Below, piece after piece: positions 1-44,138 of a stretch of DNA of 44,138 bases. Within the stretch, counting starts at the first letter, position 1, and each line of letters starts with the position of its first letter. The stretch lies in sequence record MN927226.1, one strand, 5' to 3'. A program made the translations under genes and the position numbers. This DNA comes from Escherichia phage vB_EcoS_XY2. The notes under the pieces were generated by a model, which was not told the DNA's origin, ran no database searches, and saw only the letters and a program-made list of their open reading frames with translations.

Positions 1-40
1 TCTGGCAGGCCCCACGCTTTTACCTCATATCTCTGTACCA

Positions 41-223
41 TTACTCCACCCCTTCCACATGTGTAACTGACCCACAGTTCGCGCACTCGACGTAATCAGG
101 GTACTGGTCTTTGTATTTCTGTAGCTCAGCTTCAAGTTTCGCGTAATCTTCGTAAAGCACTAACACGCCCTCAACATCAGGAGTAAACCCGAATATCTGG
201 TCGTAGGTATATCTCTGCACCAT
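41..223 (-). CDS. small early protein (60 aa), tandem paralog of CDS 43783..44052
   Basis: ORF MVQRY...CANCGSVTHVEGVE; AGGAGA RBS before ATG at 223; last 87 nt identical to 3' end of 43783..44052; stop overlaps next ATG (TAATG). Confidence 0.6.
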   Translation of the reverse strand: MVQRYTYDQIFGFTPDVEGVLVLYEDYAKLEAELQKYKDQYPDYVECANCGSVTHVEGVE

Positions 224-974: not shown

Positions 975-1005
975 ACTACGTCTCTCCTCTCGTTTGTGTA
1001 AATGA

Positions 1006-1034
1006 ATAGTAGCCTATTCTATCTTAGTGTGCAA
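1006..1034 (-). promoter_or_regulatory. sigma70-like promoter TTGCAC-N17-TACTAT with GAATAG-N4-CTATTC dyad
   Basis: Reverse complement reads TTGCAC, 17-bp spacer, TACTAT upstream of CDS 426..974; perfect inverted repeat 1004-1019. Confidence 0.45.
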
Positions 1035-2019: not shown

Positions 2020-2238
2020 TCATGATTCGGCGCCGTTGTGAATGATGCGGAAACAACATTGAAGAAAACTAACGGTTAAAGTCTCGCCCACAGTGTCCTC
2101 TAAATCCCATTCATCACCGTCTTCATCTAAAACGTATCGACGGCCGTCGTAATATACTCCTGACGAATATTTGTTACCTTTCACAAACCAATCCTGCACA
2201 TCCTGGCGGGATTCAATACAAATTAATTCTTCCATCAC
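2020..2238 (-). CDS. hypothetical protein (72 aa)
   Basis: ORF track; ATGA overlap with upstream stop. Confidence 0.5.
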   Translation of the reverse strand: MMEELICIESRQDVQDWFVKGNKYSSGVYYDGRRYVLDEDGDEWDLEDTVGETLTVSFLQCCFRIIHNGAES

Positions 2239-2426
2239 TTCACCCCTTTGAATTTAAAATTGTTGCCAATTAGTTTCATTTCATACTCTTGGTAATACGC
2301 CGCGGAACTTAACCCGTGCTCCCTGAGTAAGCTAACGACATAAGAACTTCGGTACACTGCCGATTTCTTTTCAATAATACCTAAGCTACCGTACATCGTT
2401 TTAATCAACTGACCCTTCTTAAACAT
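2235..2426 (-). CDS. hypothetical protein (63 aa)
   Basis: ORF track; ATG at 2426 preceded by GAGGAG; first gene after promoter 2461-2489. Confidence 0.5.
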   Translation of the reverse strand: MFKKGQLIKTMYGSLGIIEKKSAVYRSSYVVSLLREHGLSSAAYYQEYEMKLIGNNFKFKGVK

Positions 2427-2460
2427 AACCACCACTCCTCTGTCTCGTTTCGATAAGTGA

Positions 2461-2489
2461 ATAGTATCCTATTATATTGGGGTGTGCAA
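2461..2489 (-). promoter_or_regulatory. early promoter TTGCAC-N17-TACTAT (leftward operon)
   Basis: Reverse complement cttgcacaccccaatataataggatactattcac; near-identical to modules at 25334 and 34320. Confidence 0.5.
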
Positions 2490-2561
2490 GAGAATAGTTA
2501 CGTTGCCGTTGTGATTCTTCGGGGAGGGTTGTGCCTTTATTCTTATTACTTGGTAACTAAA

Positions 2562-2581
2562 GGGCAGGCTTAAGCCTGCCC
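2562..2581. terminator. perfect hairpin GGGCAGGC-TTAA-GCCTGCCC in divergent control region
   Basis: 8-bp perfect stem with 4-nt loop read directly. Confidence 0.4.
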
Positions 2582-2718
2582 AATAATCGTTACATTTTTA
2601 CGGTTGCGAATCTACGGCACATTAAGAAACAGTAGATATTTCAGCGGGTTACTTCTTTAAATGAGATTTAGATACACTTATCCTTAAACCCCAAGGCAAG
2701 CATCTCAGCTGTCTGGGA

Positions 2719-2756
2719 GGGGTTGACGAATCCCTCGGGGAGGGTTCGTCAACTCC
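2719..2756. repeat. 38-bp nested near-perfect palindrome
   Basis: GTTGACGAA/TTCGTCAAC outer arms around CCCTC-GGG-GAGGG inner arms. Confidence 0.6.
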
Positions 2757-2847
2757 GTAATATATACAAGTCCCAAAACCATTATACAAACATGTGTCAA
2801 GAACTTTCAATAACATTTTTGTAAAGATTAAATATTACAGAGATTGG

Positions 2848-2876
2848 TTGCTTTTACATTCCCGCTATCCTATACT
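2848..2876 (+). promoter_or_regulatory. sigma70-like promoter TTGCTT-N17-TATACT for rightward operon
   Basis: Hexamers read directly, about 30 bp upstream of CDS 2908. Confidence 0.4.
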
Positions 2877-2907
2877 CAGTTTCACCAAACAAACAGGAGA
2901 TATAAAA

Positions 2908-3090
2908 ATGTCGCATTATATGACGCAGAATGAAGTAGCTGAACGTATCGGGGTGACACGTCAGACCATTAATAACTGGTTGCGCAGCGGCAAATTCCCT
3001 GACTGCTGTATTAAGGTTATGGGCCGCCGTTTACCGGGAACATTTGACCGTAATAAAGTCGAAGCATGGATTAAGGAGAACGTGAAATGA
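2908..3090 (+). CDS. small HTH DNA-binding protein (AlpA/excisionase-like, 60 aa)
   Basis: MSHYMTQNEVAERIGVTRQTINNWLRSGKFP; CAGGAGA RBS 7 nt upstream; track start 2794 lacks RBS. Confidence 0.6.
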   Translation: MSHYMTQNEVAERIGVTRQTINNWLRSGKFPDCCIKVMGRRLPGTFDRNKVEAWIKENVK

Positions 3091-3377
3091 AAGGCGTAAT
3101 TTTCCACAATAAAGCAGAAAACGAAGTGTATATGGTTCACTCCGTGGCCGGAGAGTTCGCTTTATGCTTCAATATCTCTTGCCATCTTGATACCTACCGG
3201 CCTTTCTGCGTAGAAACAGAAATGAAGCTAATTAGCTTACGCCAACTAAGCACCATGTCGGCATCGCTTAACGTAAGAGATAATCTCGAGTATATCGACT
3301 TCTATTTCGGCGATGATTTGGTCGAGGAATATTTTGAAGAGTATAAAAATTTGCTGGAAGGGTTGGCTAAACGGTAA
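3087..3377 (+). CDS. hypothetical protein (96 aa)
   Basis: ORF track; ATGA overlap with stop of 2908..3090. Confidence 0.6.
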   Translation: MKGVIFHNKAENEVYMVHSVAGEFALCFNISCHLDTYRPFCVETEMKLISLRQLSTMSASLNVRDNLEYIDFYFGDDLVEEYFEEYKNLLEGLAKR

Positions 3378-3446: not shown

Positions 3447-3575
3447 ATGACGAAGTTAATAGTTCCACAGCTGCGCCGACAGAAACACGGCGCCGATTTC
3501 TTCGCGCCGGTAAAGATGAACCGCGCAATGCGCCGTATGCAGGAAGCCTTAGAACGTGCGGAGAAAAAGAAATGA
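3447..3575 (+). CDS. small basic protein (42 aa)
   Basis: Hand-translated MTKLIVPQLRRQKHGADFFAPVKMNRAMRRMQEALERAEKKK; stop overlaps primase ATG (ATGA). Confidence 0.4.
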   Translation: MTKLIVPQLRRQKHGADFFAPVKMNRAMRRMQEALERAEKKK

Positions 3576-5794
3576 ATATTGTTTTTGCAACGCTGCGTAA
3601 CACATTCGATAAAAACCCTGTAGCGCGTGAAATGCCGCTGGAGCAGTTTGTCGAGTATGTCTGCGATACATCGAAGCGTTTATCCGTGGACCCGTCATGG
3701 ACTAAGGAAGAGTACGACGCTGCCAAGATTAAACAGAAAGCTATTGCGCCTGTTGGTGGTCGCCGTAAAAACGCTATCCTGGAAGACAGTGTGGTTAAGT
3801 TCGATTTCGACCATCTCAACCGTACTCAGTACCGCGACCTGACACGCAAATTCAAGAACGCGCCGTTCTTCAATATTCTGCACACAACGGCATCGCATCA
3901 GCACGCATGTAAAAATGGAGATTACGCTTTCCGCGTTCTGGTTCCAGCTCGCACGCCGTTTAACTCTAACGACGCGTGGATGGTGCAACGTGCTATTTGT
4001 GCAGAGTTAGAAATAGACGAAGCGTTGCGCGACCACTGCACAGAAGACGGCAACCGCCTTATCTACCTGCCGCATAAAGAGTCGAAGATAACGGTTACAG
4101 AAGGGCGTGTTATCCGTGCTGAGCGGTACATCAAGAAAGCCGAAGAGATGGGGTTGCGTAAGCGTGAGGCTAAAACACTTGCCGCCGATGAGTATGGGCT
4201 TAACGCTGATATAGCGCATTTCTGCGAAGCCGAGCTTGGCCTTGACGCTTTATCTTCCGGGCGCGGGTACGAAGTGCCATGCCCTAACGAACATCTGCAT
4301 ACAGGCAAGGGCTCCACCAGCATAATGCTCGACGGTAAAGAAGTGCGCTTTGTCTGCCAGCATACAAACAACGGCGCTTGCACCGAGCTTAACCGTAGGC
4401 AGCATTTGGCCCTGCGTATGTGTGGCCTACCCGACGAGCTTAACATAGATAAGCAACCTATCAGCATTAACAGCATTCGTGCGGCTCTGCCTGATTTACC
4501 GGAAGAAGAGATTGAAGAACTACACCGCACAGAGAACGAGGACCCAGTAACTTGCAGCCTCGACGACCTGGAAGACGATGCGGAATCAGAGGAGGACGAG
4601 TTACCAGAACCGGTAAAGGCTGATTTCGTCGTTGAAGGGTACATGCCGTCGGATTGTATCTGGGATATCGTCGGGGAATCTGGCACGTACAAATCGTTCT
4701 ATACGCTGGGGATGATGTACCTCAGCGCCGCCGGGTACAGGTTTGCGGGGGCGGATACCCAGCGTTGCCACCATTTCTATATTGATGGTGAGGGTGGCGC
4801 AGCTACACGCACCCGTATTGATGCACTAGCGGCTAAATATGGCGGGGAAGGTAAAGATTATGTACACGTCATCGATATGGGCGAAGTCGGCAAACTTAAA
4901 AGCCTGATTAAGTTAATGCGCGAAACTGCTGGCGACGAGCCAATTGGCATGGTTGCGTTCGACACCCTTAACCAGACCCTGGCACTGACGATTGATAAGT
5001 TCGACGAGAACAGTTCATCAACAGCAATCGGCATGGGTAAAGTTATCGCCATTCTGAAAGAAGTACGCGATGCAACTAAAGCCGCAGTAGGCGTTGTCCA
5101 CCATACGCCGAAGGGTGGAAAGAAAGCACGCGGCAGTGGGGCGCTGTATGCGGGTGTTGACGTGGAACTGACAATCGAACGTGCAACCGACCGTCAAATA
5201 AACGTATACCACTCGAAATTTAAGCACGGTCCTCAACAGAAAACGGTTGGCATGGTGCTGGAGTCTGTGCAGTTCCGCGAAGCTCCGCCGCCGAAAGAGT
5301 ACCGTGCGGTTGAGTTCCTGGGGGGCACAGAAGAATACGGCACAATCGTAAACCTGGACCTTCCTGAACCACACAAGGCGCTTGTGTTGATGCCGTGGGG
5401 TTTCGAGCCGTTCAAAACTGACGAGGAGAAAGAGCGGGAAGAAGGGTTGACGAAAGAAGGTAAGCAAAAAGTAAAGGAAGAAGTTAAACGCGGCAGGGAT
5501 GAAGTAAGGAAGGAGTCAATACTTTCGGCACTGGAAGACCTGCAACAGTCAGATGACACAGGTCGCGGTTTTACTCAGCAGCAGATAGTGGCTCGTTCCG
5601 GTGACTTCTCTGTGACTAACACCCATCTTGATAAAATGTTGAAAGATGGAGAACTAATGCTTGGTTGCGATGCTAACGGCGAAGTAGTACCGAGAACATA
5701 TCGTATACCCGAAAGAATAGGGGATAGATTAAGGCCGAAGACACTATACGAACCAAATGAGATGCTGGTGGTGACAGAGGAGGATTTGGAATAG
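3572..5794 (+). CDS. DNA primase/helicase-like replication protein (740 aa)
   Basis: Cys/His cluster CPNEHLHTGKGS...CQHTNNGAC; Walker-A-like GESGTYKS; position at head of replication module. Confidence 0.75.
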   Translation: MNIVFATLRNTFDKNPVAREMPLEQFVEYVCDTSKRLSVDPSWTKEEYDAAKIKQKAIAPVGGRRKNAILEDSVVKFDFDHLNRTQYRDLTRKFKNAPFFNILHTTASHQHACKNGDYAFRVLVPARTPFNSNDAWMVQRAICAELEIDEALRDHCTEDGNRLIYLPHKESKITVTEGRVIRAERYIKKAEEMGLRKREAKTLAADEYGLNADIAHFCEAELGLDALSSGRGYEVPCPNEHLHTGKGSTSIMLDGKEVRFVCQHTNNGACTELNRRQHLALRMCGLPDELNIDKQPISINSIRAALPDLPEEEIEELHRTENEDPVTCSLDDLEDDAESEEDELPEPVKADFVVEGYMPSDCIWDIVGESGTYKSFYTLGMMYLSAAGYRFAGADTQRCHHFYIDGEGGAATRTRIDALAAKYGGEGKDYVHVIDMGEVGKLKSLIKLMRETAGDEPIGMVAFDTLNQTLALTIDKFDENSSSTAIGMGKVIAILKEVRDATKAAVGVVHHTPKGGKKARGSGALYAGVDVELTIERATDRQINVYHSKFKHGPQQKTVGMVLESVQFREAPPPKEYRAVEFLGGTEEYGTIVNLDLPEPHKALVLMPWGFEPFKTDEEKEREEGLTKEGKQKVKEEVKRGRDEVRKESILSALEDLQQSDDTGRGFTQQQIVARSGDFSVTNTHLDKMLKDGELMLGCDANGEVVPRTYRIPERIGDRLRPKTLYEPNEMLVVTEEDLE

Positions 5795-5803
5795 GTAAAA
5801 AGA

Positions 5804-5822
5804 AAGGGGCTTTAAGCCCCTT
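5804..5822. terminator. hairpin AAGGGGC-tttaa-GCCCCTT between converging genes
   Basis: Stem-loop read directly; T-run follows on minus strand. Confidence 0.5.
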
Positions 5823-6027
5823 CACCTAACGCCAGCCACTTGGCGTCTACTTCCAGAACTTCCGCCAGCTTGAACAGCGTCGCCGGCCGGACGTCCTGAG
5901 TTACCCCGAGCGCAAGCTGGTTAATCGCGCCCTGGGAAACGCCAGCCAGGACCGCCAGACGGCGCTGGGAGATGCCGAGTTCTTTACGGCGTTGTTCTAC
6001 GCGGATACCTAGTTCAGATGGTTGCAT
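5812..6027 (-). CDS. XRE/Cro-CI-type HTH transcriptional regulator (71 aa)
   Basis: LGISQRRLAVLAGVSQGAINQLALG HTH motif; solo minus-strand gene divergent from 6152 operon. Confidence 0.75.
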   Translation of the reverse strand: MQPSELGIRVEQRRKELGISQRRLAVLAGVSQGAINQLALGVTQDVRPATLFKLAEVLEVDAKWLALGEGA

Positions 6028-6091
6028 GTCAATTACTCCTTAGTCAGTTGATATGTGAATAGTACCATATTAATTATTTTAGAAAAGCCCA

Positions 6092-6120
6092 TTGACATGT
6101 GAATAGTTCGCTATTATAGT
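6092..6120 (+). promoter_or_regulatory. sigma70 promoter TTGACA-N17-TATAGT with GAATAG-N4-CTATTA dyad in spacer
   Basis: Consensus -35, 17-bp spacer; dyad 6101-6116; second degenerate box 6057-6072. Confidence 0.6.
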
Positions 6121-8380: not shown

Positions 8381-8409
8381 TTGACACCTGAATAGTTAGC
8401 TATTATAGT
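8381..8409 (+). promoter_or_regulatory. sigma70 promoter TTGACA-N17-TATAGT with GAATAG-N4-CTATTA dyad
   Basis: Same architecture as 6092-6120; upstream of CDS 8464. Confidence 0.6.
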
Positions 8410-25333: not shown

Positions 25334-25362
25334 TTGCGCGCCCCAATATAATAGGGTACTAT
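25334..25362 (+). promoter_or_regulatory. early-type promoter TTGCGC-N17-TACTAT for plus-strand island
   Basis: ttgcgcgccccaatataatagggtactattca; near-identical to 34320-34350. Confidence 0.55.
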
Positions 25363-25390
25363 TCACCAGTAACTTACTGAGGGTATAATT

Positions 25391-34000: not shown

Positions 34001-34011
34001 GTTTCCCCTTT

Positions 34012-34044
34012 CTCGATAAGTAAAGCCCCGCCATAAAGCGGGGC
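34012..34044 (-). terminator. hairpin GCCCCGC-N6-GCGGGGC then T-rich tract
   Basis: Read directly; 12 nt upstream of i-spanin start. Confidence 0.35.
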
Positions 34045-34251
34045 GCTAGTCCTTATCATTTAAACATAGAAACGGCGTAATCTCAGTAAACCAGTTACTT
34101 TTTACACAAGCAATAGAGTATGGCCCTTCCGAACGCGTCAGCGTAACTACACTCAGGACTTACGTCCAGCTCCGTTACCTGCCCGCGCCGCGGTCGCTTG
34201 TTCATACTTCACAAGCTCAGGTGGAGCTTAGCACATTTTTAGTGAAAAGTC

Positions 34252-34267
34252 AACTATTCGAATAGTT
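34252..34267. repeat. perfect 16-bp palindrome AACTATTCGAATAGTT
   Basis: Read directly, about 55 bp upstream of promoter 34320. Confidence 0.6.
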
Positions 34268-34319
34268 TATTCCAGAATTTACAATTGAGTGGAATAACTT
34301 GAATAAGTAAATAAATAGT

Positions 34320-34348
34320 TTGCGCACCCCAATATAATAGGGTACTAT
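34320..34348 (+). promoter_or_regulatory. early-type promoter TTGCGC-N17-TACTAT for DnaN-like gene
   Basis: ttgcgcaccccaatataatagggtactatcca; near-identical to 25334-25364. Confidence 0.55.
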
Positions 34349-34375
34349 CCAGTTAACTTAAACAGGAGATGAGAA

Positions 34376-34897
34376 ATGGTTACTACAGTAATTACTTTCC
34401 CTGCGTATGTAGGGGCGAAAATATGCAGGGCTAAAAATGATGTTCGCTACTATTTGAACGCTTTTTACATAGACCCTGAAGGATTGATAGTGTCTACGGA
34501 CGGTCATAGATTGTTCTGCGACAACGTGAAGACAAACGTCGAAACTGGAGTTCTAATAGACATCAAAGGGAGGGAGCCTTCTAAATTTAATTACGCGGAG
34601 GTAGACCACGACAACGGCAGTGTTTCTTTCTATGACGATAGTCGTGCGCTTATATGTACACTTCCGGTGTATGTTGTAGACGGAAAATTTCCTGACTGGC
34701 GACGCGTAGCGCGCATTACACCTGGTTCAGTTGATAGCATAGGGTTTACTCTGTGTTATTTGGCAGACGCGCACAAGATTTCTAAGGCATATAAAAATGA
34801 AATTGCTCGTTTCGATTTCCAGGACAAAACCAGAGGATGCAAAATATCATTTTCAAACACAGCATTTATGGTGTTAATGCCTGCGCGAGTTAAATAA
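34376..34897 (+). CDS. truncated beta sliding clamp (DnaN) homolog, domain II plus C-terminal part of domain III
   Basis: DVRYYLN, TDGHRLF, VDGKFPDWRRV, IGFTLCY and C-terminal FMVLMPARV match recalled E. coli DnaN segments; 173 aa vs 366. Confidence 0.75.
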   Translation: MVTTVITFPAYVGAKICRAKNDVRYYLNAFYIDPEGLIVSTDGHRLFCDNVKTNVETGVLIDIKGREPSKFNYAEVDHDNGSVSFYDDSRALICTLPVYVVDGKFPDWRRVARITPGSVDSIGFTLCYLADAHKISKAYKNEIARFDFQDKTRGCKISFSNTAFMVLMPARVK

Positions 34898-34901
34898 AAC
34901 T

Positions 34902-34921
34902 AAGGCCCCTTACGGGGCCTT
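34902..34921. terminator. bidirectional terminator AAGGCCCC-ttac-GGGGCCTT
   Basis: Perfect 8-bp stem right after stop of 34376..34897. Confidence 0.7.
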
Positions 34922-34924
34922 TTA

Positions 34925-35386
34925 TCATTCTGGCTTAGTGACCTTCGCCGCTTTACTTACCGCCTCTACCCCATCGGCATCGGTAACTTTAACGAAGTAT
35001 TCACCGACTGCGTTAACCGTCAGAGACAAAGCCTCTTCAGGTGCGTTTACAACTTCCTTACCGTCTTTGTACCATGTCAGCGCATATGGTGCTTTGCCCG
35101 CCTTAACTTCAACAGCGATAGTTGCACTGCCGTCTGTCAGTTCAGTGTCCTGCGGTTGCACAGAGAAATACACGTCGCCAGCGTCCGCCAGATACGGAAT
35201 CTCATAAAGCATACCCGCCGCTGGCAGCGCAATACCGGTCTTGTCTGCAAACGGCATATCATCCACTGGTGTACCGAGTACACTTTCATCCTCAATAAAT
35301 ACCACGTTCTCGCCAGAGCCAGACACGCGGGCGTACTGGACAACACGGCGCGACGGTACATCAGTTACTTTGAAAAAGCCCATCAT
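34925..35386 (-). CDS. Ig-like domain protein (153 aa)
   Basis: ALTWYKDGKEV...GEYFVKVTDADG Ig-like pattern; TAATG coupling. Confidence 0.55.
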   Translation of the reverse strand: MMGFFKVTDVPSRRVVQYARVSGSGENVVFIEDESVLGTPVDDMPFADKTGIALPAAGMLYEIPYLADAGDVYFSVQPQDTELTDGSATIAVEVKAGKAPYALTWYKDGKEVVNAPEEALSLTVNAVGEYFVKVTDADGVEAVSKAAKVTKPE

Positions 35387-37992: not shown

Positions 37993-39264
37993 TTAAAGTG
38001 CGAAAGTCACCGGGACGTTAATAACTGGTTTGCGAATCGGCATTTCATACGCGATAGGGTATGTGGTTCCATCATTCTGGTGGTCCACACCGCCTGATTT
38101 ATCCGGTTCGCCGTTCTTGTCGTAAGCCTGTTGCTCCAGACATCGTGCGGTAACCGGGCAAGCCTGCTCATTAATCATGACCATACCAGATTCAAGCGCC
38201 TTATTCATCGCCGCTACGCGGTCTTTAACCGGTGGGTTTGTCGATTTAGCGCGCACTTCGAAGCCGGCCTGCTGTAACTGGGCAATATCAGATGTGCTGG
38301 CGTTGTTACTTTTACGGTTTTTACCGCTTGCGTCGGGGTACATAACGATATAGTGGCCCTTACTTTTCCAGCGCTCTGTTACGGCTCTCACCACATCGGG
38401 CGTATCGAACATATCCACCAACTCGGCGACTGCATGCCAGACTTTGCCACGTTGCACGTAAACTGTACTAGCCATGTGGCCTACGTTAAAGTCCTGCCCG
38501 ATATACAGAGTCTCGCCTGGTTTTATTGTTTCGCGGCTGCTGTTTTTCCTGCGGTCATAGGCGTAATAGACAGTCCCCGCCGTCAGGTTGACGAACTCGC
38601 CGTTGATGTAGGCGTCAATCAACTGACCCGGGTATGTGTCGCGTAACGACTGCACATAATCTTCTGGCAGGAACGGGTTAGACAGGGTGGACGCCTGAAT
38701 CATCTCGTAGCCTGGATTCTTTTTGACTACCCAGCGGTCATGTACGAAACGGAATCCTTCCGGGGTAGTGAACACGGAAACGGTATTAGCAGGTTTCGGT
38801 GTAATAGGTTTATATGTCCGCGGCAACTGGCGGTTACGGGCGATGACTTTGTTCCACGCGTGCTCGGCGTGCTCCATGTTAAGGGTGTCCAACTCGTCGA
38901 TTTTCGCACGAAACGATTCGTAGCCAACGATTCGTGCTGGATTATCAAGTGTACGCAGAACAAAATCCCCAAATTGTCCGGAAGACGTATAGATTATGTT
39001 GTCAGACTTGTTGTATTTGTACCGGATACCCCAGTCGGTGAGCTTTTCTTCCATACGCGGTGCAAGGATGAGGCGCACCAGGTCATAAGTCGGCTCATAC
39101 ATGGCGATGATAGAATCGCTACCACCTTCCATGCTGTCGAGTAGTGCAGAGTTGCACATAACTTCGGATTTACCCGTACCGAAGCCAGCTACGAATGCCG
39201 GAAACTTGCAATGCATACCGAGAAACGCGCCTTGCGGCTCCGTTGCCGTGATATTAACGTTCAC
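37993..39264 (-). CDS. terL: terminase large subunit
   Basis: Walker A GFGTGKSE near N-terminus; between small terminase and portal; start codon uncertain. Confidence 0.85.
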   Translation of the reverse strand: MNVNITATEPQGAFLGMHCKFPAFVAGFGTGKSEVMCNSALLDSMEGGSDSIIAMYEPTYDLVRLILAPRMEEKLTDWGIRYKYNKSDNIIYTSSGQFGDFVLRTLDNPARIVGYESFRAKIDELDTLNMEHAEHAWNKVIARNRQLPRTYKPITPKPANTVSVFTTPEGFRFVHDRWVVKKNPGYEMIQASTLSNPFLPEDYVQSLRDTYPGQLIDAYINGEFVNLTAGTVYYAYDRRKNSSRETIKPGETLYIGQDFNVGHMASTVYVQRGKVWHAVAELVDMFDTPDVVRAVTERWKSKGHYIVMYPDASGKNRKSNNASTSDIAQLQQAGFEVRAKSTNPPVKDRVAAMNKALESGMVMINEQACPVTARCLEQQAYDKNGEPDKSGGVDHQNDGTTYPIAYEMPIRKPVINVPVTFAL

Positions 39265-39763
39265 CGGACACCACCTTAATTGTTACTTCGCTGATTGGCT
39301 CGTCGCGTACTTCTTCGGCGACAACTGTTTTATTCAACCCCAGTTTCGCAGCAGCAAACGTAGCAGAGATACCTGCGGCCCCTGTCTCGGTGAAGTACGC
39401 CTCTTCCAGCGCCTGCGCCGTTTCATAGGCTTCTGCAAATGCGGGAATCTCACGCAGCCAAAGCTTAATAATCGGGATAGTGACTCCGATGTGTAAGGCG
39501 AAGCGGGCCAGTGACGGTGGTTTATCCTGAATCAGCGGGCGTTCGTCACCCTTAGACGTTGGCACAAGCTCCCACGACGTGCGGTCGAAGAACTCGATTA
39601 ACGCGTCACAGTAGTCCGGGTCCCACAATGCCGCAGAATTACGGGATGATTGATAAAGGCTCTGTTTACCGCGCGGTCGTTTACGGCGACGGTTTGCGCT
39701 AACAGCTTCTTCATGTGCAGCTTGCACCACCTCTGGTGATGGCTGCTTAAGTTTCAGCTTCAT
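39254..39763 (-). CDS. terS: terminase small subunit (putative)
   Basis: Basic N-terminus; position immediately upstream of terL; ATG 39763 with AAGGGG RBS. Confidence 0.55.
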   Translation of the reverse strand: MKLKLKQPSPEVVQAAHEEAVSANRRRKRPRGKQSLYQSSRNSAALWDPDYCDALIEFFDRTSWELVPTSKGDERPLIQDKPPSLARFALHIGVTIPIIKLWLREIPAFAEAYETAQALEEAYFTETGAAGISATFAAAKLGLNKTVVAEEVRDEPISEVTIKVVSGER

Positions 39764-39828
39764 AGAATCCCCTTGCATATGCGTCTGACCATCAGAGCGC
39801 ACCAGACGCGCCCTACGCGTCTAAATGG

Positions 39829-43869: not shown

Positions 43870-44052
43870 GGCGTTTACTTCTGCCAGTCTCGACACAAGC
43901 CCTTCTATTTCCTTGTCGGCGTCGGCTAGACGTTCCTGGTAATAGTCGTCCAGTTCCTTATAGCTGTCGTACTCTACATAATCGCCGTATGCGTACTCAG
44001 CCATCTCAGGCTCTGGCAGGCCCCACGCTTTTACCTCATATCTCTGTACCAT
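43783..44052 (-). CDS. small early protein (89 aa), tandem paralog of CDS 41..223
   Basis: MVQRYEVKAWGL...CANCGSVTHVEGVE; shares N-terminal MVQRY and identical C-terminal 29 aa with the 41..223 product. Confidence 0.6.
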   Translation of the reverse strand: MVQRYEVKAWGLPEPEMAEYAYGDYVEYDSYKELDDYYQERLADADKEIEGLVSRLAEVNAELQKYKDQYPDYVECANCGSVTHVEGVE

Positions 44053-44138
44053 TACTCCACCCCTTCCACATGTGTAACTGACCCACAGTTCGCGCACTCG
44101 ACGTAATCAGGGTACTGGTCTTTGTATTTCTGTAGCTC
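44012..44138. repeat. 127-bp terminal redundancy identical to positions 1..127
   Basis: Exact identity of window ends; runs through coding sequence. Confidence 0.95.

What the first reader, a model, noticed from the sequence alone, without database searches (positions are those of the whole stretch)
2436..2907. 470-bp divergent control region with stacked palindromes and a 12-bp direct repeat
Between the divergent first genes of the two strands lie a perfect GGGCAGGC-TTAA-GCCTGCCC hairpin (2562-2581), a 38-bp nested palindrome (2719-2756), two copies of TCGGGGAGGGTT (2519-2530 and 2735-2746), and promoters on both strands. This density of symmetric elements in the largest non-coding gap suggests an origin of replication, a packaging signal or a multi-operator regulatory hub, not just spacer DNA.
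Basis: seen in the sequence. Interest (0 to 1): 0.45.

Follow-up and report, generated by a model that had tools for sequence, protein, structure and literature searches.

The report
Conserved non-coding cassette between phage promoters
The largest gene-free gap of this E. coli phage (a Kagunavirus) holds two outward-facing promoters, a third predicted promoter that would transcribe the gap itself, and a hairpin-bearing ~110-bp non-coding cassette that is among the best-conserved stretches of the genome; it is most likely a transcription-driven replication origin or a cis-acting leader RNA, but no experiment yet shows which.

Summary
They differ in weight. The 20-bp palindrome (2562-2581) is under structural selection. 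The 38-bp palindrome belongs to one of several interchangeable right-hand modules. The 12-bp direct repeat is lineage-specific and not conserved.

The window is a complete Kagunavirus genome, 100% identical over 2300-3100 to phage VerenaMeyer_Bas76. The gap contains:
- P_L (2457-2489, minus strand), one of seven copies of a palindromic promoter/operator motif.
- P_R (2848-2876, plus strand).
- P_x, a predicted third promoter (2781-2810, minus strand), back-to-back with P_R, which would transcribe the central ~330 bp.
- A left cassette (2502-2620) that occurs in only three unrelated types (A, B, C).

Type A is about 93% identical between E. coli and Salmonella phages. It ranks in the top 0.4% of 100-nt genome windows.

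Cassette type does not co-vary with small terminase, the primase N-domain or the HTH protein. This argues against a packaging site and against an initiator-specific iteron origin.

The closest architectural match is the transcript-dependent origin of lactococcal phage c2. My best explanation is a transcription-activated origin (confidence about 0.35). The main rival is a regulatory leader or small RNA (about 0.3).

The parts
2235..2426 (-). First gene of the leftward block (small hypothetical protein, Bas76_0057). The block continues through early genes, lysis, terminase and structural genes.
2457..2489 (-). P_L: -35 TTGCAC (2484-2489), 17-nt spacer, -10 TACTAT (2461-2466), predicted start near 2454. 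It contains the palindromic motif GAATAGTAnCCTATT, one of 7 copies in the genome, each about 30 nt upstream of a start codon. Probably a promoter plus an operator.
   Evidence: published consensus tgAATAGTa-ccTATTat-T in PMC9825357
2490..2519 (.). Block upstream of P_L that is conserved in all cassette types (…AGTTACGTTGCCGTTGTGATTCTT). It contains the left arm (TGCCGT 2504-2509, GATTC 2513-2517) of the long-range inverted repeat that closes the cassette.
2502..2620 (.). Left cassette, type A, closed by TGCCGT/ACGGCA (2504-2509 with 2614-2619) and GATTC/GAATC (2513-2517 with 2608-2612). Only three unrelated types (A, B, C) were found among 53 distinct sequences.
2519..2530 (+). Copy 1 of TCGGGGAGGGTT. 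Variable or deleted in relatives; not a conserved element.
2531..2561 (.). A+T-rich segment (71% A+T) GTGCCTTTATTCTTATTACTTGGTAACTAAA. It is 97.9% identical between E. coli-phage and Salmonella-phage members. Candidate unwinding element or protein/RNA recognition site.
2562..2581 (.). Hairpin 1, GGGCAGGC-TTAA-GCCTGCCC. The stem is kept by compensatory changes within type A and between types A and B. The loop varies in sequence and length. On the minus strand it is followed by TTTAGTT, which is terminator-like.
2582..2636 (.). Right half of the conserved type-A core (…CGTTACATTTTTACGGTTGCGAATCTACGGCAC…), about 90% identical between the two phage genera.
2645..2845 (.). Right-hand module of the window's own type. 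At least four unrelated right-module types exist in relatives, and they assort independently of the left cassette.
2719..2756 (.). Hairpin 2, the 38-bp imperfect palindrome; its loop holds copy 2 of TCGGGGAGGGTT (2735-2746). It lies at about +19 to +56 of the predicted P_x transcript. Other right-module types have a different G+C-rich hairpin at a comparable place.
2781..2810 (-). P_x: TTGAAA (2805-2810), 18-nt spacer, TATAAT (2781-2786), predicted start near 2774. It stands back-to-back with P_R and points into the central region towards P_L.
   Evidence: the same site is annotated as a promoter in fBC-Eco01, and a minus-strand RpoD-type promoter is annotated about 75 bp upstream of the HTH gene in phage AG11
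2555..2774 (-). Predicted non-coding P_x transcript up to the terminator-like hairpin 1 (about 215-220 nt). Minimum free energy -73.2 kcal/mol, z = -4.95 against shuffles. No ORF with a ribosome-binding site. Read-through would run into the P_L operon.
   Evidence: predicted only; no transcript data
2848..2876 (+). P_R: TTGCTT (2848-2853), 17-nt spacer, TATACT (2871-2876), predicted start near 2883. It is the promoter of the HTH / primase-helicase / replication block.
2908..3090 (+). First rightward gene, a 60-aa HTH_17 (excisionase-like) DNA-binding protein. The primase-helicase follows at 3572-5794.

Best explanation
The gap is the divergent control region of a lytic Kagunavirus. Two proximal sigma-70-type promoters fire outwards. 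P_L drives the early/lysis/structural block and P_R drives the replication block.

Between them lie about 350 bp that encode no protein. They appear to be transcribed leftwards from a third promoter, P_x. That transcript would run through a G+C-rich hairpin (hairpin 2), then through the conserved type-A cassette. The cassette is a composite stem-loop capped by hairpin 1. A short U-tract and a nearly invariant A+T-rich segment follow, just upstream of P_L.

I propose that this promoter-hairpin-A+T-rich unit is the phage's transcription-activated origin of replication. Host RNA polymerase starting at P_x would open the A+T-rich segment, or leave an RNA 3' end there. The phage's T7-like replisome (primase-helicase, Gp2.5-like ssDNA-binding protein, family-A DNA polymerase) would then use that end or opening. 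No sequence-specific phage initiator would be needed.

Shown: the anatomy, the conservation, the hairpin covariation, the three cassette types, and the lack of co-variation with phage proteins. Predicted from consensus and conservation: the three promoters and the transcript. Inferred by analogy only: origin function.
For: 1. Conservation. The core 2521-2620 is in the top 0.4% of 100-nt windows for identity to Salmonella phage Ent2. Between E. coli- and Salmonella-phage members the core is 92.6% identical and the A+T-rich part 97.9%. The adjacent HTH gene is about 77% identical at the nucleotide level.

2. Hairpin 1 is selected as a hairpin. Three of 8 stem pairs show compensatory changes, 98.9% of cells are paired, and loops vary in sequence and length.

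3. P_x recurs in unrelated right modules: TTGAAA-18-TATAAT, TTGACT-17-TAAGCT, TTGACA-17-TAAGGT or TAAGTT, and TTGACA-16-TAAAAT. All are on the minus strand, 4-47 bp from P_R. Against shuffles p is 0.003 and 0.001 for two types and 0.05-0.38 for the others. Others annotated promoters here independently.

4. There is no coding potential, no Rfam family and no tRNA.

5. The cassette comes in three unrelated types, each nearly invariant. The types do not co-vary with TerS, the primase N-domain, the helicase core, the HTH protein or the Cro-like regulator. This fits a protein-independent, cis-acting element.

6. The architecture matches the c2-type (Ceduovirus) origin. That origin is a non-coding region between divergent gene blocks, flanked by two tandem promoters. 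It comes in three unrelated types that are more than 90% conserved within a type. It has an essential non-coding transcript and works without phage proteins (PMC7150918).

7. T4 oriF and oriG consist of a promoter plus an A+T-rich unwinding element, and active T4 origins sit at points of transcriptional divergence (PMC3016281).

8. The cumulative GC skew is lowest at 2-3 kb and the GC content is lowest there. The replication genes are of T7 type, and no initiator gene is annotated.
Against: There is no direct evidence of replication initiation, and no transcript data.

The GC-skew minimum is fully confounded with the switch in gene orientation.

The U-tract after hairpin 1 exists only in type A; types B and C lack a comparable tail.

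The basal inverted repeat is missing in two natural type-C variants, L129 and L137.

Left and right modules recombine freely. In c2, by contrast, no recombinant origins are known and chimeras are reported to be dead.

Folding z-scores and wobble patterns do not say which strand, or whether RNA or DNA, carries the structure.

Everything listed as support fits a purely regulatory leader RNA equally well.

There is no sequence similarity to any known origin. All 387 matching phage records carry enterobacterial-type phage names, mainly Salmonella, Escherichia and Kagunavirus.
Confidence: 0.35

Rival explanations
1. The element is a regulatory leader or small RNA, not an origin. P_x makes a structured non-coding RNA with one of three roles. 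It may terminate at hairpin 1, giving a ~215-nt small RNA comparable to lambda's 6S transcript from pR'. It may read through as a long 5' leader that controls the leftward operon. Possible control modes are attenuation, RNase III/E processing, protection from Rho, and put-like cis-acting antitermination that carries polymerase through the terminator-like hairpins of the long leftward block.
For: The P_x evidence is the same as for the best explanation. Hairpin 1 followed by TTTAGTT scores as an intrinsic terminator on the minus strand and was annotated as such in fBC-Eco01. The minus-strand RNA 2550-2775 folds with z = -4.95. In Salmonella-type right modules, hairpin 2 shows T-A to G-C compensation. 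Three sequences there have an A.C on the plus strand that is a G.U only in the minus-strand RNA. The lack of co-variation with phage proteins fits a cis-acting RNA that works on host polymerase. The leftward block contains several terminator-like hairpins.
Against: The best-conserved 31 nt (2531-2561) lie downstream of the putative terminator and are mostly unpaired in the predicted folds. Types B and C have no U-tract after the hairpin. Wobble evidence for hairpin 1 is split, with one variant favouring each strand. There is no Rfam match. No complementarity of 11 nt or more to other parts of the phage was found, apart from promoter motifs. No E. coli match was found at blastn sensitivity.
Confidence: 0.3
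2. The element works purely at the DNA level, as a protein-binding platform. Host nucleoid proteins (IHF-type bending) and phage HTH regulators would bind the core and the AGTTAC-type sites to set the balance between P_L, P_x and P_R. The hairpins would be incidental.
For: P_L carries the palindromic GAATAGTAnCCTATT motif found at 7 sites, two of them upstream of the Cro-like regulator gene. AGTTAC/GTAACT is about 8-fold enriched in the central region of all module types. In Salmonella phages it forms a perfect 7-1-7 palindrome at the P_x start. An IHF-consensus site sits just right of the left cassette in 6 of 7 representative module combinations, against 4 such sites in the whole 44-kb window.
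Against: The centres of the palindromes change length by 1-2 nt and the arms co-vary, which duplex operators do not tolerate but hairpins do. The window itself lacks the IHF-like site. Three unrelated cassettes occur with the same set of phage DNA-binding proteins. A 110-bp block that is nearly invariant is more than operators usually need.
Confidence: 0.15
3. The element is the packaging (pac) site for headful packaging.
For: Jersey-like phages package by a headful mechanism, probably starting from a pac site whose position is unknown (PMC10783031). Some GenBank records of relatives start inside this region (celemicas, templet).
Against: The small-terminase gene is at 39257-39802, about 7 kb away around the circle. 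TerS proteins 97-100% identical to the window's occur with cassette types A, B and C, and so does the ~88% cluster. The region contains no GATC sites of the kind found in the P1 pac site (the P1 comparison is from my own knowledge; the count is).
Confidence: 0.03
4. There is no specific function. The palindromes and repeats would be chance features of an A+T-rich spacer between two promoters.
For: The 12-bp repeat is not conserved. The right-hand module is highly variable.
Against: The core is conserved at the top 0.4% of the genome across genera. The stem of hairpin 1 shows compensatory substitutions. Only three discrete cassette types exist, each nearly invariant.
Confidence: 0.03

Closest known systems
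Origin of replication of lactococcal prolate phage c2 and other Ceduovirus phages (PE1-T transcript)
   Same: A non-coding region separates two divergently transcribed gene blocks. It is bounded by two tandem promoters of one block, has no ORF or ribosome-binding site, and comes in three sequence types that are highly conserved within a type and unrelated between types. The distal promoter makes a non-coding transcript. Function does not depend on phage proteins (PMC7150918).
   Different: There is no sequence similarity. The host (Gram-negative) and the replication genes differ. Here the left and right modules recombine freely, whereas recombinant c2 origins are not seen and chimeras are reported non-functional. 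Origin activity and the transcript are untested here.
T4 oriF/oriG and the T7 primary origin (promoter plus A+T-rich unwinding element; the RNA serves as primer)
   Same: A promoter points into an A+T-rich segment. The element sits at a point of transcriptional divergence and compositional-skew change. The replisome is of the T7 type (Gp2.5-like ssDNA-binding protein, family-A polymerase, primase-helicase), and no initiator gene is annotated.
   Different: T4 uses MotA-dependent promoters and T7 uses its own RNA polymerase; here the promoter is of host sigma-70 type. T4 unwinding elements need no specific sequence, whereas this segment is nearly invariant. About 215 nt with two hairpins lie between promoter and A+T-rich segment. 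R-loop formation is untested.
Lambda pR'-6S RNA-tR' and HK022 put: promoter-proximal non-coding leaders that decide read-through of a long late operon (from my own knowledge of these systems)
   Same: A constitutive-looking promoter is followed by a short structured non-coding RNA and a terminator-like hairpin. This sits at the head of a block that runs through lysis, terminase and structural genes. In the put case no sequence-specific phage protein is needed.
   Different: No Q-like or N-like gene or binding site was identified. The U-tract is present only in type A. There is no similarity to put, nut or qut sequences, and Rfam gave no match. About 14 small early genes lie between the element and the lysis genes.
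Single-strand initiation hairpins of RSF1010 oriV (ssiA and ssiB, recognised by the plasmid primase; from my own knowledge)
   Same: G+C-rich hairpins lie in a non-coding region next to a RepA-type (AAA_25) helicase/primase system. The hairpins are selected for pairing rather than for loop sequence.
   Different: RSF1010 has iterons bound by RepC and a pair of hairpins on opposite strands. Neither arrangement is seen here. Cassette type does not co-vary with the primase domain.

Membership tests
c2-type (Ceduovirus) transcript-dependent phage origin | Lies in the non-coding region between two divergently transcribed gene blocks | tested here: met
   The gap 2427-2907 lies between the leftward and rightward blocks.
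c2-type (Ceduovirus) transcript-dependent phage origin | Flanked by two tandem promoters of the same block; the distal one gives a non-coding transcript | tested here: inconclusive
   P_x and P_L are both on the minus strand. They are predicted from consensus, recurrence and conservation. No transcript data are available.
c2-type (Ceduovirus) transcript-dependent phage origin | No ORF or ribosome-binding site between the two promoters | tested here: met
   Only ORFs of 55 aa or less occur, and none is conserved. Indels that are not multiples of three, and unrelated cassettes, occur in relatives.
c2-type (Ceduovirus) transcript-dependent phage origin | A few discrete types, highly conserved within and unrelated between, without recombinants | tested here: inconclusive
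   There are three left-cassette types, each nearly invariant. However, left and right modules occur in many combinations.
c2-type (Ceduovirus) transcript-dependent phage origin | Drives plasmid replication without phage proteins | not testable with these tools
   This needs cloning into a conditional vector.
c2-type (Ceduovirus) transcript-dependent phage origin | Sequence homology to a known c2, bIL67 or 923 origin | tested here: not met
   Among the 387 matching phage records, every organism-name class is enterobacterial (mainly Salmonella, Escherichia and Kagunavirus) except one Pseudomonas-named record. The resemblance to c2 is architectural only.
Promoter plus unwinding-element origin (T4 oriF/oriG, T7 primary origin) | Promoter directed into an A+T-rich element | tested here: inconclusive
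   P_x is predicted. The segment 2531-2561 is 71% A+T but lies about 215 nt downstream, beyond two hairpins.
Promoter plus unwinding-element origin (T4 oriF/oriG, T7 primary origin) | Persistent R-loop, or an RNA-to-DNA transition, in the A+T-rich element | not testable with these tools
   This needs mapping of nascent DNA 5' ends or R-loop footprinting.
Iteron origin bound by a phage initiator | Three or more regularly spaced direct repeats | tested here: not met
   All direct-repeat families have two copies. The 12-mer is not conserved. AGTTAC is enriched but irregularly placed.
Iteron origin bound by a phage initiator | Origin type co-varies with the initiator's DNA-binding domain | tested here: not met
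   The window-type primase N-domain occurs with cassettes A, B and C, and other N-domain types occur with A and B.
pac site of a headful-packaging phage | Located in or next to the small-terminase gene | tested here: not met
   terS is at 39257-39802, about 7 kb away on the circle.
pac site of a headful-packaging phage | Recognised by TerS, so its sequence type should follow the TerS type | tested here: not met
   TerS proteins that are 97-100% identical occur with types A, B and C.
Intrinsic terminator or small-RNA gene | G+C-rich stem followed by a U-tract, downstream of a promoter | tested here: inconclusive
   Met on the minus strand in type A: 8-bp stem followed by TTTAGTT. Types B and C lack a comparable tail.
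Any curated RNA family (Rfam 15) | Match at or above the family's gathering score | tested here: not met
   The whole window gave 0 matches. The region searched at E up to 10 gave only three chance-level hits of 16-17 bits.
Duplex operator for a dimeric regulator (the two large palindromes) | Fixed half-site spacing and conserved half-site sequence | tested here: not met
   The centre of hairpin 1 varies (TTAA, CTTAA, CCTAA, TTAAG, CTAAA), and the arms change together.

The most novel reading that the evidence does not exclude
The A, B and C cassettes would be interchangeable, protein-independent cis-acting modules transcribed by host polymerase from P_x. They would be either transcript-primed replication origins for a T7-type replisome in phages that lack their own RNA polymerase, or a new class of leader RNA that reprograms host polymerase for the long leftward operon. 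Either way, this would be an undescribed non-coding element family shared by several hundred Salmonella and E. coli phages that are used in therapy and biocontrol.
Probability: 0.3. Interest if true: 0.6.

Novelty: new member of a known kind. Interest (0 to 1): 0.42.

Why it matters
Guernseyvirinae (Jerseyvirus and Kagunavirus) are among the phages most often isolated against Salmonella and E. coli. They are used for biocontrol and as chassis for engineered phages. I found no described replication origin, early transcription map or non-coding RNA for them in the papers I searched.

This gap holds one of the most conserved stretches of their genomes, and it encodes no protein. If it is the origin, three things follow. 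It defines where replication starts in a T7-type replisome that depends on host RNA polymerase. It gives a minimal replicon for phage engineering. It explains why only three cassette types circulate. If it is a leader RNA, it is a new handle on how these phages time early against late expression.

Practically, the two tiny ORFs annotated inside the gap in Bas76 are probably not genes. The 'phage-polymerase promoters' reported for fBC-Eco01 are more likely host-type promoters with an operator.

Tried and rejected
- Rfam, at gathering scores on the whole window and at a permissive E-value on 2400-2950, gave nothing meaningful. ARAGORN found no tRNA or tmRNA.
- Small ORFs in the gap were rejected as genes. 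They are not conserved, are broken by indels and span unrelated cassettes.
- The 12-bp direct repeat as an iteron was rejected, because copy 1 is variable or deleted.
- I looked for a partner protein that tracks cassette type. TerS, the HTH_17 protein, the primase N-domain, the helicase core and the Cro-like regulator were all negative.
- I tried to decide between RNA strands from folding z-scores and from wobble versus mismatch variants. Both were inconclusive.
- DnaA boxes are not enriched or conserved. No Fis-consensus site was found in any representative. The IHF-like site is conserved in relatives but absent in the window itself.
- Homologues outside the phage group: none in E. coli chromosomes. 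The only plasmid hit is itself a Kagunavirus genome.
- The distant loci L038-L042, found through the HTH protein, proved unrelated and uninformative.
- Literature searches for a mapped origin, transcriptome or pac position in Jerseyvirus or Kagunavirus found none. The primary c2 origin papers (PMC194990, PMC529073) were not available, so the c2 features are cited from PMC7150918.
Full report
**What the window is.** The 44,138-base window is a complete, circularly closed phage contig. Its first ~127 bases recur at the end. Over 2300-3100 it is 100% identical to Escherichia phage VerenaMeyer_Bas76 (PQ850632), and related records are classified as Guernseyvirinae, genus Kagunavirus. The finding lies between two gene blocks. 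The first gene of the leftward block has its ATG at 2426 on the minus strand. That block runs through about 14 small early genes, lysis genes, terminase and all structural genes. The first gene of the rightward block is a 60-aa HTH_17 protein at 2908-3090. It is followed by a primase-helicase with an AAA_25 domain (3572-5794), an exonuclease, a Gp2.5-like ssDNA-binding protein, a family-A DNA polymerase and a resolvase. Nothing upstream can read into the gap, because both blocks leave it and converge on the far side of the circle.

**Check of the observation.**
- Hairpin 1 (2562-2581) is a perfect 20-bp palindrome. It is tied for the longest perfect inverted repeat in the genome. Markov-simulated 481-bp sequences contain any perfect stem of 8 bp or more in about 7% of trials.
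- The 2719-2756 element is imperfect: 15-nt arms, 87% complementary, 8 nt between the arms.
- TCGGGGAGGGTT occurs exactly twice in the window.
- The gap is the largest non-coding gap if two tiny ORFs annotated in Bas76 are discounted (window 2457-2573 and 2723-2824). In relatives they span unrelated cassettes and carry 10-11-nt indels, so I discount them.

**Promoters.**
- P_L: the 33 nt at 2457-2489 recur, inverted, at 25341-25366 and 34320-34348. Their palindromic core GAATAGTAnCCTATT occurs 7 times, against 0.2 expected. Where I checked (P_L and the copies at 1004 and 6057), the copy lies about 30 nt upstream of a start codon on the strand it faces. Two copies precede the Cro-like regulator gene. 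This is the 'phage promoter' consensus published for fBC-Eco01 (PMC9825357). No phage RNA polymerase gene is annotated, so I read it as a host-type promoter (TTGCAC-17-TACTAT) with a built-in operator.
- P_R: TTGCTT-17-TATACT (2848-2876), or a near variant, is present in all relatives.
- P_x: TTGAAA-18-TATAAT on the minus strand (2810 down to 2781) matches 11 of 12 consensus positions (p = 0.003 against shuffles). In relatives whose right-hand modules are unrelated in sequence, the best minus-strand promoter upstream of P_R is again a near-consensus -35 with a TAnnnT -10. The forms are TTGACT-17-TAAGCT, TTGACA-17-TAAGGT or TAAGTT, and TTGACA-16-TAAAAT, 4-47 bp from P_R. Against shuffles their p-values range from 0.001 to 0.38. 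The annotators of fBC-Eco01 marked a minus-strand promoter at the same place, and those of AG11 marked one about 75 bp upstream of the HTH gene. I regard P_x as probable but unproven.

**The central region is modular.** I collected 53 distinct sequences from IMG/VR, metagenomes and GenBank. They show that the ~120 bp after the conserved block …GTTGCCGTTGTGATTC come in only three unrelated types (22 type A, 21 type B, 10 type C). Each type is nearly invariant inside. The window carries type A. All three types share three features:
- An apical G+C-rich hairpin at the same place (A: GGGCAGGC/GCCTGCCC; B: GGGTGGGC/GCCCACCC; C: GGTGCC/GGCACC).
- An enclosing stem.
- Closure by a long-range inverted repeat, TGCCGT…ACGGCA. 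Two type-C variants lack the right arm.

To the right of the cassette lie at least four unrelated right-hand modules. They assort independently of the left cassette. Each carries its own G+C-rich hairpin within the first ~90 nt downstream of P_x. The window's 38-bp palindrome lies in one such module, which is held by only the 20 of 387 matching phage records that cover at least 80% of the gap.

**Selection.**
- Type A is shared by E. coli and Salmonella phages: 387 matching records, 266 of them Salmonella phages.
- Between the two host groups the core 2531-2636 is 92.6% identical and the A+T-rich part 2531-2561 is 97.9% identical. The adjacent HTH gene is about 77% identical at the nucleotide level.
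- Against the whole genome of Salmonella phage Ent2, the window 2521-2620 ranks in the top 0.4% of 100-nt windows.
- In hairpin 1, three of eight stem pairs show changes on both sides (C-G to U-A, A-U to G-C, C-G to U-A), and 98.9% of cells are paired. The loop varies in sequence and by 1-2 nt in length. That pattern means the element works as an extruded hairpin, in RNA or single-stranded DNA, and not as a duplex operator.
- By contrast, copy 1 of the 12-bp repeat is variable or deleted.

**What it is not.**
- It matches no Rfam family and contains no tRNA.
- It has no homologue in E. coli chromosomes. The single plasmid hit is itself a type-B Kagunavirus genome deposited as a plasmid.
- It is unlikely to be the pac site. 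terS lies about 7 kb away, and TerS proteins that are 97-100% identical occur with types A, B and C.
- It is unlikely to be an iteron origin read by the primase-helicase. No repeat family has more than two copies. The window-type primase N-domain occurs with A, B and C, and other N-domain types occur with A and B.
- No phage DNA-binding protein within 3 kb tracks the cassette type.

**Which strand, RNA or DNA?** This remains unresolved.
- The predicted P_x transcript 2775-2550 folds with z = -4.95. Across types, however, the cassette folds about equally well on both strands.
- Single-step variants of hairpin 1 give one case favouring each strand.
- In Salmonella-type right modules, hairpin 2 has a T-A to G-C compensation. 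Three sequences there carry a pair that is G.U only in the minus-strand RNA. This is a weak hint for the P_x transcript.
- Hairpin 1 followed by TTTAGTT scores as a minus-strand terminator in type A. Types B and C lack such a tail.

**DNA-level features.**
- AGTTAC/GTAACT is the most enriched hexamer, about 8-fold over the genome, in the central region of all module types.
- An IHF-consensus site lies just right of the left cassette in 6 of 7 representative combinations, but not in the window itself.
- DnaA boxes are not enriched.
- GC content and cumulative GC skew are lowest at 2-3 kb. This coincides with the switch in gene orientation, so it is not independent evidence.

**Comparison with what is known.** The closest match in architecture is the origin of lactococcal phage c2 and other Ceduovirus phages. 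That origin has these properties (PMC7150918):
- A non-coding region between two divergent gene blocks.
- Two flanking tandem early promoters, PE1 and PE2.
- No ORF or ribosome-binding site.
- Three unrelated types, each more than 90% conserved.
- A non-coding transcript (PE1-T) implicated in transcription-mediated initiation.
- Function without phage proteins.

T4 oriF and oriG (a promoter plus an A+T-rich unwinding element, with an R-loop primer) show the same logic, as does the T7 primary origin. Active T4 origins also sit at points of transcriptional divergence (PMC3016281). This phage has a T7-type replisome and no annotated initiator. The same anatomy also fits a promoter-proximal regulatory RNA, such as the lambda 6S/tR' arrangement or HK022 put (from my own knowledge). 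Membership in any of these families by sequence is not met. The resemblance is in how it may work.

**Verdict.** Its most eye-catching details, the 12-bp repeat and the 38-bp palindrome, matter least. The important object is the type-A cassette (2502-2620, with its conserved core running on to 2636) together with P_x. I commit to a transcription-activated origin as the most likely mechanism (about 0.35). A cis-acting regulatory leader or small RNA is close behind (about 0.3), followed by a purely DNA-level protein-binding platform (about 0.15). Pac site and chance are each about 0.03. Transcript-end mapping and early marker-frequency sequencing would settle it.

Noticed in passing
window 1-127 and 44011-44138: The first ~127 bases of the window are repeated at its end. 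This is the overlap left by assembling a circular or circularly permuted genome, so the true unit length is about 44,011 bp.
   Followed up: yes
window 1004-1018, 2459-2473, 6057-6071, 6101-6115, 8390-8404, 25350-25364, 34336-34350: There are seven copies of the palindromic motif GAATAGTAnCCTATT, against 0.2 expected. Those I checked lie about 30 nt upstream of a start codon. Two stand in tandem before the Cro-like HTH_3 regulator gene (5812-6027, minus strand), which suggests autoregulation. The fBC-Eco01 paper attributes this motif to a phage-encoded RNA polymerase, but no such gene is annotated in Bas76.
   Followed up: partly
whole window: GATC is strongly depleted. The count of 16 over both strands means about 8 sites, against roughly 170 expected for 44 kb. 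There is none in the control region, although the phage encodes a DNA methyltransferase. This looks like avoidance of restriction or Dam-dependent processes.
   Followed up: no
window 3572-5794 and loci L003-L037: The primase-helicase gene is itself a mosaic. Its N-terminal ~310 codons and its helicase core occur in different combinations among relatives. All type-C loci pair the window-like N-domain with a helicase core that gave no nucleotide match to the window's.
   Followed up: partly
type-C loci, e.g. L004, about 80-105 nt after GTTACGTTGCCG: Type-C cassettes carry a (GAGT)n tetranucleotide run with about 3 copies in most sequences and 6-7 in L004, next to a (GAAAC) repeat. One type-B variant (L016) has the complementary CTCA run. 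This is a slippage-prone microsatellite inside the conserved cassette.
   Followed up: no
L160 (CP088689.1, 44,086 bp, 'plasmid pC16EC0033-2' of a blood isolate of E. coli): This record is a complete Kagunavirus genome with a type-B cassette, the HTH gene and a RepA-family helicase, deposited as a circular non-mobilizable plasmid. It may reflect a carrier state or phage DNA in the culture.
   Followed up: partly
window 2457-2573 (+) and 2723-2824 (+): Two small ORFs annotated as hypothetical proteins in Bas76 (Bas76_0056 and Bas76_0055) overlap P_L, hairpin 1 and hairpin 2. They are not conserved in relatives and are probably over-predictions.
   Followed up: yes
window 34001-35000: This is the second-lowest GC kilobase of the genome (0.43). 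It holds a copy of the promoter motif (34320-34352), a perfect 16-bp palindrome AACTATTCGAATAGTT (34252-34267) and a terminator-like hairpin (34902-34921). It may be a second control region.
   Followed up: no
L161 (Salmonella phage Ent2) 37472-38477: In this Jerseyvirus the equivalent gap is annotated as about 1 kb without genes. Its helicase and DNA polymerase genes carry annotated inteins, which the window's Bas76 homologues do not show.
   Followed up: no
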